From IMG/VR virus record IMGVR_UViG_2579778535_000016, positions 1-14,511 of that record: 14,511 nucleotides of DNA. One strand, given 5' to 3'. The stretch is from a virus. Its lineage: Duplodnaviria > Heunggongvirae > Uroviricota > Caudoviricetes. A model generated the notes under the pieces. That model ran no database searches, was not told the DNA's origin, and worked only from the letters and a program-made list of their open reading frames with translations. Positions 7,340 to 14,511 of the stretch are shown here, one piece after another; positions within the stretch are counted from its first letter, which is position 1, and every line of letters begins with the position of its first letter. Position numbers and translations under genes: made by a program.

Positions 7340-7942
7340 TTATGGGTAAATCAGATCGCTATACTCAGAAAGTGTTATTGCTGTACCACCTTGTCCATCA
7401 GGTTGTTTGGCGGTAATTGTCCATTGTCCTGCATCAAGTTCCTCTGATGTGGCAATCACATATCTTGATGGAGACTGCACATCGAAGCCGTCGTAAAAGT
7501 TGAGTGATATGTCAGGAATTGCGGCTGTAAAACCAAAAGCCGTATCTGTTCTCGCAGAGGCGGGATAACGCGCTGTTGTGGCACCCATTGAGTCCGTAAC
7601 CTGAACATACATCGAACCTGAAAAGTTAATCCTTTCACTGGTTTCGAAGTTGTTACCATTGCGGGAAACGATATACCCGGCCTGCTGATTGGTATCGTAG
7701 GTATCAGGAACCTGAACCATATCACCGATATCCATGGAGTTGGCATAACCAGCCAGTTCAGTGAACGCCGAGCCAGTTTTGGATGTACTCTGATCGAGGT
7801 TATCCATTCCCTTGCCTGACTGCTGGGCGGCAACGTCAAGTTTATCCAGAGCATCAATGGCCTGTTTCCCGCCCTGTAGCAGCGGCTCAACGTCGGCGCT
7901 GATTTCATAAACGATGCTACCGGCGTTCTTCTCACCTGCCAT
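7340..7942 (-). CDS. Phage tail-region structural protein, function unassigned, 200 aa
   Basis: ATG with GGAG RBS; protein-like composition, whereas the overlapping alternative-frame ORF 7456..7947 is R/W/P-rich junk. Position between tail genes and tailspike. Confidence 0.55.
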   Translation of the reverse strand: MAGEKNAGSIVYEISADVEPLLQGGKQAIDALDKLDVAAQQSGKGMDNLDQSTSKTGSAFTELAGYANSMDIGDMVQVPDTYDTNQQAGYIVSRNGNNFETSERINFSGSMYVQVTDSMGATTARYPASARTDTAFGFTAAIPDISLNFYDGFDVQSPSRYVIATSEELDAGQWTITAKQPDGQGGTAITLSEYSDLIYP

Positions 7943-7954
7943 GTCATTCTCCGT

Positions 7955-8626
7955 TTATTTCTTTGCTTTTGCTCTACGGGCAGCCTGTTTAGCCAGGTAT
8001 TCGTCGGCGATATTGTCGTACTCTTCTCGCGTGAAGCCTTTCTGGTCAGGGTATTTCGCCGCCAGCAGCATCTGGAACTCGGTCATCGTTAACTGAGATG
8101 CTTCGGCGCGGTTCATTTCAAAATGACTACGCGCGGCACTGATGTAATCGAATGCTTTAAATTCGTTCGTTTTCGCTCCGGTTTCATGGCGCTGCAACTG
8201 GCGAATCTTGGCCTTTCCGACAACGCCATGCTGCATTAGGTGCTGCGCCAGCACGATGATGTCGTTCTTCGGCATTTGCCCGGGTCGGTAAACGACACAA
8301 TGCTGCCACCCCTTCCACTCGCCGATCATTGGCGTCAGGTCCTCATCGCAGCACGCCTGCAGCACCAGCATGCACGTTGATAACAACTTCTCAGCGGCGC
8401 GATTTAATGATGGAGATAGCCAGACAGGAAAACGACCCAGCGTGCCTGCACACATCTCAATGAGCTGAGCGACATCATTTCCGTGGATGGTGGCGTACGC
8501 TTGCACAATCTCTTCCGGAGTGCCGATCTTGGTCATGGCCTCGAATGAAGGCCGTAGCAGGTAATCTTTGCCTCCCTCACGGCTGTCGCTGATAGAGAGT
8601 TCGCCAATATCGGTTAAAGCGGTCAT
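7955..8626 (-). CDS. Phage protein, possibly a tail assembly chaperone, 223 aa
   Basis: ATG with GGAAGG RBS, directly downstream of the major tail protein gene; lysine-rich C-terminus. Function inferred from position only. Confidence 0.5.
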   Translation of the reverse strand: MTALTDIGELSISDSREGGKDYLLRPSFEAMTKIGTPEEIVQAYATIHGNDVAQLIEMCAGTLGRFPVWLSPSLNRAAEKLLSTCMLVLQACCDEDLTPMIGEWKGWQHCVVYRPGQMPKNDIIVLAQHLMQHGVVGKAKIRQLQRHETGAKTNEFKAFDYISAARSHFEMNRAEASQLTMTEFQMLLAAKYPDQKGFTREEYDNIADEYLAKQAARRAKAKK

Positions 8627-8683
8627 AGGCCTTCCAGTGAACGGTCATTATCAAGGGCAGCACGCCGCCCTTTGGAATACCCG

Positions 8684-9427
8684 TTAGCTGACGGTAACCG
8701 TATGCACAGCTACGAAGTTGCCGTCTTCGGTATTGATGATGATCTGCGCACTGCCTGCTGCAACGCGGTTCACTGTGACAGTGGTGCCGGAAGCGGTAGC
8801 AGTGGCTTTTGTTGGATCGGTTGATGCGACGGTGAAGTCTTTATTAGTTGCGCCAGTAGGTGCGATATTCACAGTGAAGGTGCTGGTACCACCAGCCGCG
8901 CCAGTGCTGGTTGCCGGAGTTACCGTCACGCCAGTCACAGCAACTGCGGTGATTTCATTCACTTCAATAGTGCTCGCATCGCCGACTTTGAACTCGGTGG
9001 AGAACGTGACGATGTCGTTGGTACCACCGTCAGAGCTCAGCGCCGTGATGTTCATGTAGCCGATAAATTCGACAGGGCCGTAGTCCATGCGAACCCAGAT
9101 CCCGGGCTGGCGCTTGGCCTTCAGCTCATCAGCGAAATACTTGATGAACTTGCCGACACCGTACTGATCCAGCTTGTCCTTCTTGCGCACTTCGCCTTCA
9201 AAGCTCAGGGTGAAATCACTGTTGGTGATGATGGTCTCGACATAGCCGCCGCCGTCATCCGCATCAGAGGTAACCGAGTTCGGGTTGAAGTCGAAGCCTT
9301 TCGACGTACCAGCAGCCAGCGCCATCCACTCAGCTTCGAGTGGTTTGACGTCCGGGCAGCCATCGGCGACTTCCAGCACGACCGCACCGCCGAACAGGCG
9401 CTCGTTCGAGTTCTGGCAATTAGCCAT
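8684..9427 (-). CDS. Major tail (tube) protein, lambda gpV-like, with C-terminal Ig-like (Big_2) domain, 247 aa
   Basis: C-terminal VTPATSTGAAGGTSTFTVNIAPTGATNKDFTVASTDPTKATATASGTTVTVNRVAAGSAQIIINTEDGNFVAVHTVTVS resembles the lambda gpV Ig-like domain. Strong RBS AAGAGGAG 6 nt before the ATG. Confidence 0.7.
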   Translation of the reverse strand: MANCQNSNERLFGGAVVLEVADGCPDVKPLEAEWMALAAGTSKGFDFNPNSVTSDADDGGGYVETIITNSDFTLSFEGEVRKKDKLDQYGVGKFIKYFADELKAKRQPGIWVRMDYGPVEFIGYMNITALSSDGGTNDIVTFSTEFKVGDASTIEVNEITAVAVTGVTVTPATSTGAAGGTSTFTVNIAPTGATNKDFTVASTDPTKATATASGTTVTVNRVAAGSAQIIINTEDGNFVAVHTVTVS

Positions 9428-9456
9428 GTGAAACTCCTCTTTGACGTATAAAAGAA

Positions 9457-9474
9457 AACCCGCCGGAGCGGGTT
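9457..9474 (-). terminator. Intra-operon stem-loop terminator/attenuator upstream of the major tail protein gene
   Basis: AACCCGC-UCCG-GCGGGUU followed by UUCUUUUAU on the minus strand, between the upstream ORF stop (9491) and the gpV-like start (9427). Confidence 0.55.
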
Positions 9475-9490
9475 ATTTGGTTGGGAATGG

Positions 9491-10149
9491 CTATTCGCCG
9501 TAAGTGCAGGCGAACTGGAGTCTGAAGACTATTCGCCCTTCTTCTGTGAGAACCGGCGCGGGGATTGCGCCCATGTTCTGGATGTAGCCGACGCAATCGT
9601 CAGCCATTGGGTTAGCCTGGACGTAATCGACGATACGCTGCACAGCGTTGAGCGCGTCTTTGCGCTTACCGGGATAAGTTTTACCAGCGCTGACTCGCCA
9701 AGGGATTTCACCAGCTTGATATCTACTGGTTCGTTCCACGACTTATTATCTTTCACCTGCAGCAGCAGCGCGGAGTAACGCCCAACCATATTGCGGCGGT
9801 CGGCATCCTTCACCTTCGGCCACAGCTTCTTCATGAACTTGGTAACTTTCTTTTCCCAGGCGTTTGTTTTCTCCGCTTCCTGCGCTTCATCACCGTCGAC
9901 AATGACCGGATAGTCCTGCCAGCAACCATCCAGCAGACGATGCACCACAGCAAAGCCAGCGGCGTTACGGCGGTACATGTTGTAGAAGTCGTTGAAGGTG
10001 ATCTCGCGCGGGTAGCCAAATTCCTGGTAAAGCGTCGGTCGCTTCGTGTTGCCGCCACCGATACCGATGGCATTCAGGTAATTCGCTCGCCGCATTTCAG
10101 TGGCGAGATTGTTCACAGCCATCTGCAGGCCGTTATCTTGTTCGCTCAC
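9491..10149 (-). pseudogene. Frame-disrupted phage morphogenesis gene directly after TerL (possible portal-region remnant)
   Basis: GTG start with strong AAGGAG RBS at 10149. The first roughly 155 codons look like protein, then the frame degenerates into S/T/R-rich sequence, while an overlapping frame (to 9491) becomes protein-like (..PWRVSAGKTYPGKRKDALNAVQRIVDYVQANPMADDCVGYIQNMGAIPAPVLTEEGRIVFRLQFACTYGE). Total length is far short of a portal. Confidence 0.45.
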
Positions 10150-10161
10150 TGGCGATGCTCC

Positions 10162-11634
10162 TTAGAAGAATACTGTGCCGACCTGCTTACGGTTGTTCTT
10201 CGTCACTGCGAAGTAACGGAAGCTGTCAGCACCATGCGAGGTGGCGTCATGGAGAGGTTTGTCTTTCCAGCAGCCGCGCTTGTCGTCCCATTCCTTCCGG
10301 TAGCCCTCAAGGTGAGAGATACCTTCCGAGCATTTATCCTCATCGAATACGCATTTCGGAAGGATTTCACGCGCCGACTCAATGCCAGTATAGATGCCAG
10401 CTTTCGGCACCACTTTGAAATTCAGTGAGTACATCTGACCGTCAATCTCGTAACCCTCGCGCGCCAGCTCTTTGCGTGACTTAGCATCAGCAGCGAACTC
10501 GCGGTTTTCGATGTCGTGCGGCCCCCAGTGCTCGCCATACTCATAGCCGCGGTCTTTCAGCACTTTCATGTAATGCCTCAGGCCCTCACCGGAGTTTTCG
10601 TAGTAGTCGATGATGTGGAACTCTTCGCCAACCTCGCGAACGAACCAGATCGCCGTGGAGTCACCCACACCGATATCCCAGAACGTGTGCACCGGGAGAT
10701 GCGAGTTATCCGGGATTTGGCCGATCCGCTTATTGGTGTAGAGCCAGCGGAACTGTTTGGCGTAATACGCGCCCTCGACAGATTGCTGGAACGCCTCGGC
10801 CGGAATGGTCGGGTATTCGCGCTTCATGTCGTCGCCGAGCGTTTTCTCTTTGGCGTAGTACCAGGCTTTCTGGCGATCGTTGACTACTACGCCGTGCTTC
10901 GCCTCCATCTCAGCGAAGTATTCCAGCAGGCGCACCGGCAGAGACTCGACCGGGTCGATTGCGTACTGCGGATTCTTCCACCAGGAGAAGAAGAAAAACT
11001 TCCAGTCCAGCGCGGATAACGGCTTGCCCTGCAGCAACGCCTTCTCTGCCGTCTGGCAGTAATCGAAGAAGTAACCCGCTCGGCCCTCTGCTGTGCTCTC
11101 GATGGTGGCGAAGCATCCGGTAGATACCGCCTCAAACGCACCAGTGACGATTTCACGGGCTTTGTCTGGATACTTGGCACATATCTTCCCGAACTCGGAA
11201 ACGTGCAGGTAACGCAACGTTCCGCCACGAAACGACGTACTGACGTATAGCGATCCGCCCTTCTTGAATACGAGCTCACCAGACGAATCATTGCTGGCCG
11301 GGTTGGCCGCCTTTATCTCTGCGGGCAACTTGTCGTATGCGTACTTTACCTTCTCGCGGAACAGACGTTTTGCGTCGTTCAGCGTGTGGGCGATCAGCGC
11401 GCACTTTGCTGACTCGAACAGGGCCGCGTCGAGCTGGATGATGCACACCTCGGTAGTGAATCCGAGCTGGCGTGCTTTCAGGATGATGTTGCGGGTGTGG
11501 ATCCCCTCGAAGTATTCCCGCTGCTCAGGCGTCATCCTGAAGCGCGTGGGCTTACCTTCTTTGTCGGTGATCCAGTAGAGATTGTTCAGCCGCCAGTCTT
11601 TATCGGACAGCAGCTTGATGTGCTCAGGTTTCAT
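10162..11634 (-). CDS. terL: Terminase large subunit, 490 aa
   Basis: N-terminal ATPase motif region (NIILKARQLGFTTEV), length and position after TerS; start ATG overlaps the TerS stop (TAATG). Confidence 0.9.
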   Translation of the reverse strand: MKPEHIKLLSDKDWRLNNLYWITDKEGKPTRFRMTPEQREYFEGIHTRNIILKARQLGFTTEVCIIQLDAALFESAKCALIAHTLNDAKRLFREKVKYAYDKLPAEIKAANPASNDSSGELVFKKGGSLYVSTSFRGGTLRYLHVSEFGKICAKYPDKAREIVTGAFEAVSTGCFATIESTAEGRAGYFFDYCQTAEKALLQGKPLSALDWKFFFFSWWKNPQYAIDPVESLPVRLLEYFAEMEAKHGVVVNDRQKAWYYAKEKTLGDDMKREYPTIPAEAFQQSVEGAYYAKQFRWLYTNKRIGQIPDNSHLPVHTFWDIGVGDSTAIWFVREVGEEFHIIDYYENSGEGLRHYMKVLKDRGYEYGEHWGPHDIENREFAADAKSRKELAREGYEIDGQMYSLNFKVVPKAGIYTGIESAREILPKCVFDEDKCSEGISHLEGYRKEWDDKRGCWKDKPLHDATSHGADSFRYFAVTKNNRKQVGTVFF

Positions 11635-12236
11635 TACGCCCCCTGAGACAGTGAATCCATCAGGTCAGACAGTTGCTTAACAGAGTTGTCACCTTCCGGC
11701 CCGTCGATATCGTAGGCCTGGCGCTCAAGACCAATCAGATTCTTCAGAGCGTCGCTCAGTGCCTTAACCGACTTAACGCGCTCCGGCATGCTGATGACCT
11801 TGTGGTAAATCTCGTTGAGCTTATCCTGACCTTTGTCGTCAGGGTCGAACATCAACTCTCCGAGCCTCTCCAGTGCGGCCACATCTGCGCACTCTGCGCC
11901 CAACTCATCAAACAGGGCGTTCGTTATCTGCCGGGCGCGCTTAATATCGCCGCGATGCTCCATGCGGACGTTGGCAATTACCTCAGCCGTCGCCTCGATG
12001 AGTACGCGTTCGTTAAAAGTGACTTCACTGCGTACCTGTTTGCGTACCTCGGCTTTGCGTACCAGATCGTCAGCGCGTTCTTTCACCTTCGCATTCAGGT
12101 CACGCGACCAGTCGTCACGCTTTGCGCGCTTACGGATAGCGCCTTCACTGATACCGTGTTGTGATGCTATTTCTCGGAGGGACATCACTCCGGCCCGGTA
12201 CGCCGTCTCGATGGCCTCCCAGTCCGGTTTGCTCAT
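11634..12236 (-). CDS. terS: Terminase small subunit, 200 aa
   Basis: N-terminal HTH-like segment (AGVMSLREIASQHGISEGAIRKRAKR), acidic C-terminus, translationally coupled to TerL; GGAG RBS. Confidence 0.75.
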   Translation of the reverse strand: MSKPDWEAIETAYRAGVMSLREIASQHGISEGAIRKRAKRDDWSRDLNAKVKERADDLVRKAEVRKQVRSEVTFNERVLIEATAEVIANVRMEHRGDIKRARQITNALFDELGAECADVAALERLGELMFDPDDKGQDKLNEIYHKVISMPERVKSVKALSDALKNLIGLERQAYDIDGPEGDNSVKQLSDLMDSLSQGA

Positions 12237-12808: not shown

Positions 12809-13327
12809 TCACTTTGGCAGTCCGGGGATCGATATTTGCGCCTGCTGCTCAAGCCTTTCGATTCTTGCTATGAGTTGCGGTTTTTTGATCCTGCCCCAGC
12901 GGTTCAGCAAGCGTCCTGACATACTGGCAACATCCTTTTCCTTCATGAACTCCAGCATTAACTCGTTGTGCTCTCTTTGGTATGAGTGAGCCATCTCCAT
13001 CAGCCTGTCACGCATCCAATTAAATGCTTTGATAAACGCCTCTTTGATGGCGGCAGCTTTTTTGCCGGTAAACGACATGATGATGTACATCGCGCCGTCT
13101 TTGGAAATTTCATATTCAACATACTGATTACCCTTGTGTTCATAGGTAACCCGCGAAAAGTTGCTGGTTAGAAATTCATCCGAACAGTCTAGCTTTTCGA
13201 TTTTCTGAATGATGTGGTGATGCTGCTTGTCGAAGTAAGCTGCTACCTTGCGGGAGGTTGTGATCACGCGATCACCAGAAACAACCACCATGTCCCGGAA
13301 ATCGAGATTAGCCAATTGATGATTCAT
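12809..13327 (-). CDS. Rha-family phage regulatory protein, about 172 aa
   Basis: MNHQLANLDFRDMVVVSGDRVITTSRKVAAYFDKQHHHIIQKIEKL matches the Rha N-terminal domain. The track ORF extends to 13570, but the first 81 codons are non-protein-like; start placed at ATG 13325..13327 (AAAGG RBS). Confidence 0.7.
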   Translation of the reverse strand: MNHQLANLDFRDMVVVSGDRVITTSRKVAAYFDKQHHHIIQKIEKLDCSDEFLTSNFSRVTYEHKGNQYVEYEISKDGAMYIIMSFTGKKAAAIKEAFIKAFNWMRDRLMEMAHSYQREHNELMLEFMKEKDVASMSGRLLNRWGRIKKPQLIARIERLEQQAQISIPGLPK

Positions 13328-13669
13328 AGCGTCTTTACCTTTTAGAAAGTGAGCCTGTCTCACAGAAAAGCCGCCCGAGAGAGGTCGCCACCTATAACGG
13401 CATTTCTCAGGCTCGCTTACTGAAAGGCTCTCGTTAATATGCGCGTGAGATGCGCTGTGAAATTCAGATATAAAAAGCCCCGCGAATGCGAGGCTAAATC
13501 CTGGTATTTGTAATGAACTGGCTCTTATCTCAACGCAGCCCCTTACTGCGCGCCAGATGCTCAATATCAAGCATCAGCAATGAGATGTTTAATCTGGATT
13601 TACTCCAGAAGTGATCACCACCCTGTCTACAGAGCCAGATGTGAAGGATGATGAGTAAAATTATCGCTA

Positions 13670-14137
13670 TCATCGAAGGCATTGCGTCCTGATGTATTCC
13701 TGAAGCGTTCTCAGTGCTGTTTGGTCGCGGATAATTCCGTCCCGGACACCGAGAACGTTTCGTCCAGCAACTGGAGAGAGTTCGACGGTGGCATCATTGC
13801 CCATGCCGGAGGCGCCGGAGGTTTCGGCTGAGGATGGCACAGGGCATTTTCCTTTGACGAGCACCCTGCCACCATTATCAAGCTTGCGCCGAAGAGCATC
13901 ATTTTCAGCTTTCGCATCAGCTAACTCCTTCGTGTATTTAGCATCAAGTGCATCAGCAGTACGCTGGCGCTGCTGCATGTCAGTAATGGTGGCGGTCGCC
14001 TGCTTCAGTTCACTGGCCTTGTTATCGCGCTGTTCTTTATAGGTAATGGCGTTATCTCGGTAATGATTAACCGCCCATGACAGACAGACGATGATGCAGA
14101 TAATCAGAGCGGAGATAATCGCGGTTACTCTGCTCAT
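13670..14137 (-). CDS. Rz: Rz i-spanin (inner-membrane spanin), 155 aa
   Basis: [34 protein letters not shown]... is near-identical in pattern to lambda Rz; ATG overlaps the lysozyme stop (ATGA). Confidence 0.9.
13711..13917 (-). CDS. Rz1: Rz1 o-spanin lipoprotein embedded in the +1 frame of Rz, 68 aa
   Basis: [21 protein letters not shown]... with a lipobox (VAGC) and proline-rich stretch PKPPAPPAW, matching lambda Rz1 (MLKLKMML...VVGCTSK...PPPPPAW). Confidence 0.8.
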
Positions 14138-14511
14138 TGCTGCCCCCACAAACAGACTTCACGCTCAATCTCACGACGGGTCATCAGCCCTTTCCATTGC
14201 TTACCGCCAGCGTATGCCCAGCGACGTAGCTGGTCACATGCGCCCTTGATATCGCCCTGGTTGATTTTGCGAAGAAGCGTCGATGTTCTGAAATTGCCTG
14301 CGCCCACGTTATAGACGAACGAATAAAGAGCGCCGCGCGTTGTTTCCGGTATATCGACTTTGATGTACGGGTTAATTTGTCTGGCGACCGTGGCAAGGTC
14401 TTTATTCAGGAGGGCTTTGCATTCTGCTTCGGTATACGTTTTACCGGGAATGATGTCTTTTCCGGTGTGTCCGTGACATACAGTCCATACACCAACAATA
14501 TCTTTGTATGG
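14134..14511 (-). CDS. Phage lysozyme (T4-lysozyme family, RrrD/P21 R-like), 3' portion only; N-terminus lies beyond the window edge
   Basis: Minus-strand translation from the window edge reads [20 protein letters not shown]...LWGQQ and ends at TGA 14134..14136, overlapping the Rz start. Not in the ORF track because its start codon is outside the window. Confidence 0.85.

What the first reader, a model, noticed from the sequence alone, without database searches (positions are those of the whole stretch)
9491..10149. Candidate deletion junction: protein-like sequence switches reading frame at about 9700..9745
From a strongly initiated GTG at 10149 the first roughly 155 codons are protein-like; thereafter that frame turns low-complexity and a different frame becomes protein-like through to 9491. 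The second frame has tandem stop codons just upstream of its start. This is the pattern expected where an internal deletion fused the 5' end of one gene to the 3' end of another out of frame.
Basis: seen in the sequence. Interest (0 to 1): 0.4.

Follow-up and report, generated by a model that had tools for sequence, protein, structure and literature searches.

The report
Deletion scar in a decayed prophage
A roughly 7-kb deletion in a decaying E. coli prophage joined the first 161 codons of the portal gene, out of frame, to the last 58 codons of the tail-terminator gene; this is ordinary decay, but at least four unrelated prophage remnants break within a few bases of the same portal position.

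Summary
The window is the end of an E. coli draft contig (AYQQ01000026.1) and carries a prophage remnant at argW/yfdC.

**The junction.** The ORF from GTG 10149 is portal codons 1-161, 95.7% identical to an intact E. coli prophage portal. At window 9667/9668 the sequence jumps to codon 70 of the tail-terminator gene. The two parental sequences share only the dinucleotide TA there.

**What is missing.** Relative to the intact relative, 7,002 bp are gone: the rest of the portal, the head genes, the connector genes and the terminator's N-terminus.

**The reading frames.** The portal frame runs on for 45 junk codons. The true terminator frame survives as the last 58 codons of ORF 9491-9739. The first 24 codons of that ORF, and the tandem TAA stops upstream, are out-of-frame portal sequence.

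**Further decay.** A second, in-frame deletion (ORF 7340-7942, tape measure fused to tail-tip protein) and a split antirepressor gene show multi-hit decay. As such it is ordinary.

**Unexplained.** One other E. coli remnant breaks at exactly the same portal nucleotide. Three more (an unidentified Logan assembly, Actinobacillus ureae, Enterobacter hormaechei) break within 0-9 bases of it. Each has a different partner.

The parts
9667..10149 (-). Portal gene remnant, codons 1-161 (GTG start, AAGGAG ribosome-binding site 8 nt upstream)
   Evidence: 95.7% aa identity to residues 1-161 of the L001 portal. PHROG 146 portal, E 2e-39, profile positions 15-159 of 587. The full-length relative matches the solved Sf11 portal, PDB 9yin, E 6e-93.
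9667..9668 (.). Deletion junction: the dinucleotide TA shared by both parental sequences (portal ...CCGGTA|TGGGAG; terminator ...AAGATA|AGCGCA)
   Evidence: The blastn alignments to L001 overlap by exactly these 2 bases. Base-level view.
9529..9666 (-). Out-of-frame read-through: 45 junk codons plus stop appended to the portal fragment
   Evidence: It translates the terminator DNA one base out of register (residues 161-206 against L001 7001-6864). The product is low-complexity and S/T/R-rich.
9491..9667 (-). Tail-terminator gene remnant: codons 70-127 plus stop, in their native frame, with no start codon of their own
   Evidence: Pfam PF23842 positions 69-125 of 125, E 7e-21. 96.6% identity to L001 residues 70-127.
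9669..9748 (-). Spurious 5' part of ORF 9491-9739 (24 codons from GTG 9739) and the tandem TAA TAA at 9748-9743. Both are alternative-frame readings of portal codons
   Evidence: Sequence read directly. No family match before residue 25.
9457..9474 (-). GC-rich hairpin followed by a T run, between the terminator remnant and the tail-tube gene
   Evidence: Terminator-like site found by the consensus scan.
10162..11634 (-). Large terminase subunit, apparently intact, immediately upstream
   Evidence: PHROG 2 and 2472. 92.8% DNA identity to L001.
11634..12236 (-). Small terminase subunit
   Evidence: PHROG 1206, E 5e-95.
8684..9427 (-). Tail tube (major tail) protein with an Ig-like domain, immediately downstream
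   Evidence: PHROG 853, E 2e-103; Pfam Big_2.
7340..7942 (-). Second deletion scar in the same prophage: in-frame fusion of the tape-measure N-terminus (residues 1-57) to the C-terminus of the tail-tip (TipJ-like) protein. The junction lies at about 7735-7771
   Evidence: BLASTP against CobraSix gp20 residues 1-57 and gp24 residues 695-824 of 825. PHROG 1538 and 469.
1..1158 (+). Prophage integrase at the argW/yfdC end of the element
   Evidence: Pfam Phage_integrase and Arm-DNA-bind_3. The flank in L002 is 100% identical to E. coli yfdC and tRNA-Arg.

Best explanation
This is the scar of an internal deletion of about 7 kb in a lambdoid siphovirus prophage integrated at argW in E. coli.

**What happened.** Illegitimate joining at a 2-bp overlap (TA) connected the last base of portal codon 161 to the middle of tail-terminator codon 70. 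The deletion removed the following:
- the remaining 328 portal codons;
- the minor head protein;
- the DUF2213 protein, which is probably the scaffold or protease;
- the major capsid protein;
- the head-tail connector genes;
- the first 69 terminator codons.

**Consequences for the ORFs.** The terminator DNA is entered one base out of register. The portal start therefore now drives a 206-codon ORF of 161 portal residues plus 45 meaningless residues. The terminator's real C-terminal frame remains only as a start-less fragment. Neither piece can do its original job. The element cannot make heads and is a defective prophage.

**Shown versus inferred.** Shown: the two homologies, the exact junction, the frame offset, the gene content of intact relatives, and further decay elsewhere in the element. 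Inferred: that the event was a single deletion by microhomology-mediated illegitimate recombination, and that the fusion product has no function.
For: - Collinear alignments to the intact E. coli 30EVA1 prophage, with 7,002 bp missing and a 2-bp overlap.
- Protein-level mapping of each half, and of the junk tail.
- The same nucleotide boundary against independent phage genomes, and the gene order in the infectious phage CobraSix.
- A second deletion fusion in the same element, plus a split antirepressor gene and a truncated one.
- The window is 100% identical to a contig whose flank is E. coli yfdC/argW.
- All 25 complete E. coli genomes that match this portal gene at the DNA level carry portal-annotated sequence with no truncation at the junction position; 10 match over the full length and the weaker matches are partial only because of divergence.
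- 37 of the 38 assessable species-representative genomes and 117 of 120 viral contigs have the portal gene intact through this position, so the truncation is derived.
Against: - The junction is known from one draft assembly only, and no reads were available to exclude a misjoin.
- The true ancestor is unknown. The best references are 90-93% identical, so the deletion could in principle have occurred in more than one step.
- The portal-side endpoint recurs in other remnants. A purely random illegitimate recombination does not predict this.
Confidence: 0.9

Rival explanations
1. The junction is an assembly chimera in a short-read draft genome. No deletion exists in the strain.
For: The exact fusion protein is on record in one contig only. 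The junction 24-mer was not found in 185,579 representative genomes. The contig ends inside the same prophage.
Against: - Only 2 bases are shared at the join, and graph assemblers do not join on 2 bases.
- The order and orientation are exactly those of a collinear deletion.
- The same element carries a second, independent deletion scar and a frameshifted gene.
- Equivalent junctions in other species are seen in several independent assemblies: A. ureae in two assemblies, E. hormaechei in at least 9 contigs.
Confidence: 0.04
2. The portal N-terminal fragment of about 161 residues is kept because it is useful to the host, for example as a dominant-negative decoy that poisons portal or terminase assembly of related superinfecting phages. 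The junction position would then reflect selection for that fragment.
For: - Five remnants retain portal sequence up to the same codon.
- A close relative has a nonsense codon at position 163, giving a 162-residue product.
- The native start and ribosome-binding site are intact.
Against: - Selection cannot fix a breakpoint to the nucleotide when 45-68 arbitrary residues are tolerated after it.
- The L004 remnant keeps only residues 80-161 behind a junk N-terminus.
- The E. hormaechei case is an in-frame internal deletion, not a truncation.
- The fusion protein in the window is a singleton.
- No expression or phenotype data exist.
Confidence: 0.05
3. It is one gene with a simple frameshift, or a programmed frameshift, or two genuine small genes.
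For: Two overlapping ORFs in different frames, one with a good start.
Against: - The halves belong to genes 7 kb apart in relatives.
- The Pfam match to the terminator begins at profile position 69.
- No database protein covers both halves.
- The first 24 codons of the second ORF match nothing.
Confidence: 0.01

Closest known systems
Cryptic (defective) prophages of E. coli, for example CPS-53/KpLE1 at argW, and DLP12, Rac and Qin. Their general decay by deletion is reviewed in PMC6379469
   Same: It is integrated next to yfdC/tRNA-Arg (argW) with an integrase at the end. Essential morphogenesis genes are lost by internal deletions. Truncated and fused ORFs are left behind. Accessory genes (acyltransferase, tailspike) are kept.
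   Different: The phage lineage is different: Sf11-like portal and terminase with a CobraSix-like tail. This remnant is not present in any of 5,426 complete E. coli genomes. That CPS-53 sits at argW is from my own knowledge, not tested here.
Intact relatives: the prophage of E. coli 30EVA1 (NZ_CP138423.1, 2.60-2.63 Mb); Klebsiella phage KO-TP1 (terminase and portal); Enterobacter phage vB_EclS_CobraSix (tail module); Shigella phage Sf11 portal (PDB 9yin)
   Same: 90-93% DNA identity on both sides of the junction, with the same gene order. The portal family has a solved structure.
   Different: They carry the 7 kb of portal C-terminus, head and connector genes, and the roughly 6.3 kb from tape measure to tail tip, that the window lacks.
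Deletion families with one fixed endpoint: Int-promoted deletions of phage lambda ending at att; IS-promoted adjacent deletions; deletions ending at rolling-circle nick sites (my own knowledge; offered as an analogy for the recurrent portal endpoint)
   Same: One endpoint is fixed to the nucleotide, or to a few bases, while the other varies: +0.4 kb, +7 kb, +12.6 kb and beyond the tail genes.
   Different: There is no IS, att site, recombinase site or nick-site motif at the fixed endpoint. There is no synonymous-site conservation there in 40 intact genes. No element remains at the junction.

Membership tests
Phage portal protein, Sf11-like / DUF1073 (PF06381, PHROG 146) | Sequence homology to the family | tested here: met
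   Residues 3-164 match PHROG 146, E 2e-39. 95.7% identity to an annotated DUF1073 portal. That portal matches PDB 9yin 'Sf11 portal', E 6e-93.
Phage portal protein, Sf11-like / DUF1073 (PF06381, PHROG 146) | Full-length protein of about 450-490 residues, including the PF06381 core | tested here: not met
   Only profile positions 15-159 of 587 are present. There is no Pfam hit for the 206-aa ORF. Residues 162-489 are absent from the window. It is a gene fragment, not a functional member.
Phage tail terminator (Pfam Phage_tail_terminator_3, PF23842) | Homology across the whole 125-position domain, with its own start codon | tested here: not met
   Only positions 69-125 are present. Codons 1-69 and the start are deleted. 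The C-terminal homology itself is strong (E 7e-21).
Defective (cryptic) prophage | Integrase at a tRNA attachment site, with phage modules in canonical order | tested here: met
   Integrase at 1-1158. yfdC/tRNA-Arg flank in L002. The order is lysis, terminase, portal', tail tube, tailspike, conversion genes, integrase.
Defective (cryptic) prophage | Loss or disruption of genes essential for particle production | tested here: met
   Missing or truncated: portal, capsid, scaffold, connectors, tape measure and distal tail genes. The antirepressor gene is split.
Defective (cryptic) prophage | Inability to produce infectious particles on induction | not testable with these tools
   This needs induction of the strain.
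Programmed translational frameshift (tail chaperone G/GT type) | Both frames are contiguous parts of one conserved locus in relatives, with a slippery site | tested here: not met
   The two frames derive from genes 7 kb apart. The true chaperone region lies elsewhere.

The most novel reading that the evidence does not exclude
The portal gene of this family (Sf11-like, DUF1073) may contain a site-specific fragile point at the invariant ...I-P-V|W-E... codons (GTA|TGGGA). DNA would be broken there repeatedly and independently, with the upstream end preserved to the nucleotide and the downstream side lost to a variable extent. One possible cause is an endonuclease from a competing phage, satellite or host defence that recognises protein-constrained bases. 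This would generate head-less prophage remnants in several genera.

The window's junction would be one product of that process. A second recurrent point may exist at portal codon 80/81.
Probability: 0.3. Interest if true: 0.65.

Novelty: new member of a known kind. Interest (0 to 1): 0.3.

Why it matters
As a deletion scar it matters mainly for annotation.
- ORFs 9529-10149 and 9491-9739 should be marked as fragments of a portal gene and a tail-terminator gene, not as hypothetical proteins.
- The element should be classed as a defective prophage that cannot form heads.

The wider point is the recurrent portal breakpoint. If independent remnants in E. coli, Enterobacter and Actinobacillus really break at the same few bases, prophage disarmament in this family is not purely random decay. 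The site would then be a handle for finding whatever cuts or recombines there.

Tried and rejected
- **Junction 24-mer in representative genomes.** An exact search in 185,579 genomes found nothing. The junction is strain- or lineage-specific.
- **Complete E. coli genomes.** None holds the junction. All 25 that match this portal gene carry portal-annotated sequence with no truncation at the site.
- **Mistyped pattern.** A pattern meant to find portal genes whose codon 162 does not start with T had a spacer of 99 N instead of 97. That scan was wasted. The corrected pattern was validated on the window, L004 and L005 and found nothing in JGI metagenome contigs or IMG/VR.
- **Conserved cis-element at the site (pac, cos or a nuclease site).** Third-codon positions around the site are as variable as elsewhere in 40 intact genes. 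Not supported.
- **Portal split by an intron or homing-endonuclease gene at the site.** 349 phage records carry the family. All but one of the 60 rows listed are single pieces of normal span, and the exception (Streptomyces phage SF3, 2 pieces) also has normal span. No support. The short metagenome contig L006 remains ambiguous.
- **Chi-like octamers.** They lie 14-45 nt upstream of the site. The spacing does not fit RecBCD cutting, so this was not pursued.
- **Frameshifted terminator proteins P0024 and P0025.** At first they looked like relatives of the junk tail. They are terminator genes with a 1-nt loss in an A4 run. They are unrelated to the junction.
- **Strain identity.** A search for the assembly accession in the paper library found nothing.

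Full report
**What the window is.** The window is 100% identical to the last 14.5 kb of E. coli draft contig AYQQ01000026.1 of assembly GCA_000503395.1. The DNA just beyond window position 1 is 100% identical to E. coli yfdC and tRNA-Arg.

The window holds a prophage on the minus strand. Its content, in coordinate order, is listed below.

| Window coordinates | Strand | Content |
|---|---|---|
| 1-1158 | + | Integrase |
| 1232-1621 | - | UmuD-like gene |
| 2029-3921 | mixed | Antirepressor and Arc-like genes |
| 4022-5035 | + | Acyltransferase |
| 5049-7283 | - | Tailspike with a GDSL esterase region |
| 7340-7942 | - | 200-aa ORF (second fusion, see below) |
| 7955-8626 | - | DUF6246 gene |
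| 8684-9427 | - | Tail tube gene |
| 9491-10149 | - | The region in question |
| 10162-11634 | - | Large terminase |
| 11634-12236 | - | Small terminase |
| 12809-13570 | - | Rha-like regulator |
| 13670-14149 | - | Rz-like spanin |

The contig ends in the lysozyme gene.

**Checking the observation.** The 206-codon ORF 9529-10149 starts at a GTG preceded by AAGGAG at an 8-nt spacing.
- Residues 1-161 are 95.7% identical to residues 1-161 of the 489-residue DUF1073 portal of an intact prophage in E. coli 30EVA1, locus L001.
- They match the portal family PHROG 146 at profile positions 15-159 of 587.
- That full-length portal matches the solved Sf11 portal, PDB 9yin, at E 6e-93. The family is annotated as portal in 349 phage records.

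After residue 161 the frame gives 45 serine/threonine/arginine-rich residues.

In a different frame, residues 25-82 of ORF 9491-9739 match Pfam Phage_tail_terminator_3 positions 69-125 of 125 (E 7e-21). They are 96.6% identical to residues 70-127 of the L001 tail terminator. The first 24 codons of that ORF match nothing. The tandem TAA TAA at 9748-9743 is the out-of-frame reading of portal codons GAT AAT AAG.

**The junction.** blastn against L001 gives two collinear blocks:
- window 7854-9668 aligns to L001 5187-7000;
- window 9667-12230 aligns to L001 14001-16564.

The blocks overlap by the two bases TA at 9667-9668, and 7,002 bp of L001 are absent. In gene orientation:
- window: CCCGGTA|AGCGCAAAG;
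- intact portal: TCCGGTA|TGGGAGCC;
- intact terminator: AAAGATA|AGCGCAAAG.

Portal codon 161 (GTA, 9669-9667) is followed by the second base of terminator codon 70. The terminator is therefore read one base out of register, which explains the junk tail.

The same boundary appears against independent references. Klebsiella phages KO-TP1 and ST11-VIM1phi8.1 align from window 9667 rightwards. Enterobacter phage CobraSix aligns up to 9667.

In L001 the missing stretch encodes the following:
- the rest of the portal;
- a minor head protein;
- a DUF2213 protein;
- the major capsid protein;
- a series of small proteins;
- the first 69 terminator codons.

CobraSix, an isolated infectious phage, shows the same order from portal to terminator to tail tube.

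Its estimate of the switch point (9700-9745) is 30-80 bases too far upstream.

**More decay in the same element.**
- ORF 7340-7942 is an in-frame fusion. Tape-measure residues 1-57 (CobraSix gp20) are joined to residues 695-824 of the 825-residue tail-tip protein gp24 (56% identity). That is a second deletion of about 6.3 kb in CobraSix coordinates.
- An Ant-type antirepressor gene is split into two overlapping ORFs (2932-3270 and 2561-2965). Another antirepressor (2029-2523) covers only the first 166 of 264 profile positions.

The element has lost roughly 13 kb of morphogenesis genes. It cannot build heads or complete tails.

**How common the junction is.**
- The exact 206-residue product is on record in one contig.
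- The junction 24-mer is absent from 185,579 representative genomes.
- No complete E. coli genome has the junction.
- All 25 complete E. coli genomes that match this portal gene carry portal-annotated sequence with no truncation at the site.
- 37 of the 38 assessable species-representative genomes and 117 of 120 IMG/VR contigs have the portal gene intact through this position.

The truncation is therefore a derived and rare state. I could not check reads, so a misjoin is not formally excluded. A 2-base overlap, perfect collinearity and the other scars make it unlikely.

**Mechanism.** The simplest account is a single illegitimate recombination at a 2-bp microhomology, of the kind that erodes prophages generally (review: PMC6379469). 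The fusion ORF keeps the portal start, so it may be translated whenever the late operon is read. Nothing suggests it has a function.

**An unexpected recurrence.** The protein searches returned other fusions that leave portal homology at the same place. The table lists all of them, with the window first.

| Case | Source | Sequence at the break | Partner | Position relative to the window's break |
|---|---|---|---|---|
| Window | E. coli, prophage at argW | CCCGGTA\|AGCGC | Tail terminator codon 70 (...GATA\|AGCGC) | reference |
| L004 (P0019) | E. coli GCA_963506735.1; prophage at a different chromosomal site; portal fragment only 87% identical to the window's | CCCGGTA\|ACGGCTATC | Minor tail gene 12.6 kb away in L001; partner again carries TA (...GCTA\|ACCGC) | same nucleotide |
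| L005 (P0004) | Logan assembly, organism not identified | CCAGTA\|ATGGGC | Start codon of an accessory gene that sits in an unrelated, IS-disrupted prophage remnant in E. coli 98232 | within 0-5 bases |
| L008 and L042 (P0028) | Actinobacillus ureae, two independent assemblies; portal 49% identical | LVKFIFV\|TPHRW | A non-phage pseudogene near recF-dnaN-dnaA | within 0-6 bases |
| L171 and L172 (P0016, P0182) | Enterobacter hormaechei, at least 9 contigs | CCGGTA\|TCCGAAGCG | In-frame internal deletion to about 123 codons downstream in the same gene | within 0-9 bases |

Three further observations bear on this.
- The closest relative of the window's fragment, metagenome contig L173, has GAG changed to TAG at codon 163.
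- Two remnants, L004 and L174, also share a left-hand break at portal codon 80/81.
- Breaks elsewhere in the portal exist but are few: L174's right end at about residues 195-250, and P0006 at residue 111.

If breakpoints were uniform over a 1.4-kb gene, four further events falling within 10 bases of the first would have a probability of the order of 1e-8.

I tested two explanations for the recurrence.
- A conserved DNA element. Synonymous positions around the site are not conserved in 40 intact genes. Only TGGGA, which the Trp-Glu codons force, is invariant.
- An intervening element at the site. Portal genes in isolated phages are uninterrupted.

Selection for the N-terminal fragment does not explain nucleotide-level precision, because 45-68 arbitrary residues are tolerated after the break.

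The recurrence therefore remains unexplained. A site-specific break at protein-constrained bases is my preferred speculation, at about 0.3.

**Verdict.** The recurrent portal endpoint raises its interest modestly and deserves a systematic survey.

Noticed in passing
window 9667-9669; L004 10286-10290; L005 2874-2880; L008 10436-10445; L171 8475-8490: Independent prophage remnants leave portal homology at the same codon (161 in the window's numbering), each joined to a different partner. They come from E. coli (two, at the identical nucleotide), an unidentified Logan sample, Actinobacillus ureae and Enterobacter hormaechei (each within 0-9 bases). There is no conserved DNA motif, IS or att site there.
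   Followed up: partly
L173 1112-1120: The closest relative of the window's portal fragment (a metagenome contig) has a nonsense mutation at portal codon 163: CCGGTATGGTAGCCG against the intact CCGGTATGGGAGCCG. This splits the portal into 162-residue and 305-residue ORFs, 2-3 bases from the recurrent breakpoint.
   Followed up: partly
L004 10040-10046; L174 6280-6286: A second recurrent breakpoint. Two unrelated remnants have unrelated upstream sequence joined to the portal just before codon 80/81 (Y|PVIVDGDE). In L001 both recurrent sites carry TCCGGTA.
   Followed up: partly
window 7340-7942 (-): An in-frame fusion ORF joins tape-measure residues 1-57 to the last 130 residues of the TipJ-like tail-tip protein. 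It is a second deletion of about 6.3 kb in the same prophage, with the junction at about 7735-7771.
   Followed up: yes
window 2029-3270 (-): An Ant-type antirepressor gene is split into two overlapping ORFs (2932-3270 and 2561-2965), which suggests a frameshift. A second antirepressor ORF (2029-2523) covers only the first 166 of 264 profile positions.
   Followed up: partly
window 4022-7283: A tailspike with a CBA120-type N-terminal domain and a GDSL esterase region (5049-7283, -) lies next to a divergently oriented membrane acyltransferase (4022-5035, +). This looks like an O-antigen modification (lysogenic conversion) module, and it has survived the decay. L004 and L171 keep a similar tailspike with an acyltransferase or glucosyltransferase end.
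   Followed up: no
window 9457-9474 (-): A GC-rich hairpin followed by a T run lies between the tail-terminator remnant and the tail-tube start. It is a terminator-like site inside the late operon.
   Followed up: partly
proteins P0024 and P0025 (Logan assemblies): These are tail-terminator genes with a 1-nt loss in an A4 run, 3-6 nt upstream of the window's tail-side breakpoint. They produce the same out-of-frame C-terminus as the window's fusion ORF. They are probably sequencing errors or independent pseudogenes.
   Followed up: partly
hit H60, NZ_CP028760.1 2102970-2103742: One member of this portal family is named 'anti-CBASS protein Acb1 family protein' in RefSeq, although the family matches the solved Sf11 portal (PDB 9yin). 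The name is probably misleading.
   Followed up: no
L171 6995-10008: The E. hormaechei remnant also has a large terminase reduced to its C-terminal 230 residues. It has no small terminase between that gene and the upstream 72-residue gene. This is a multi-deletion architecture like the window's.
   Followed up: no
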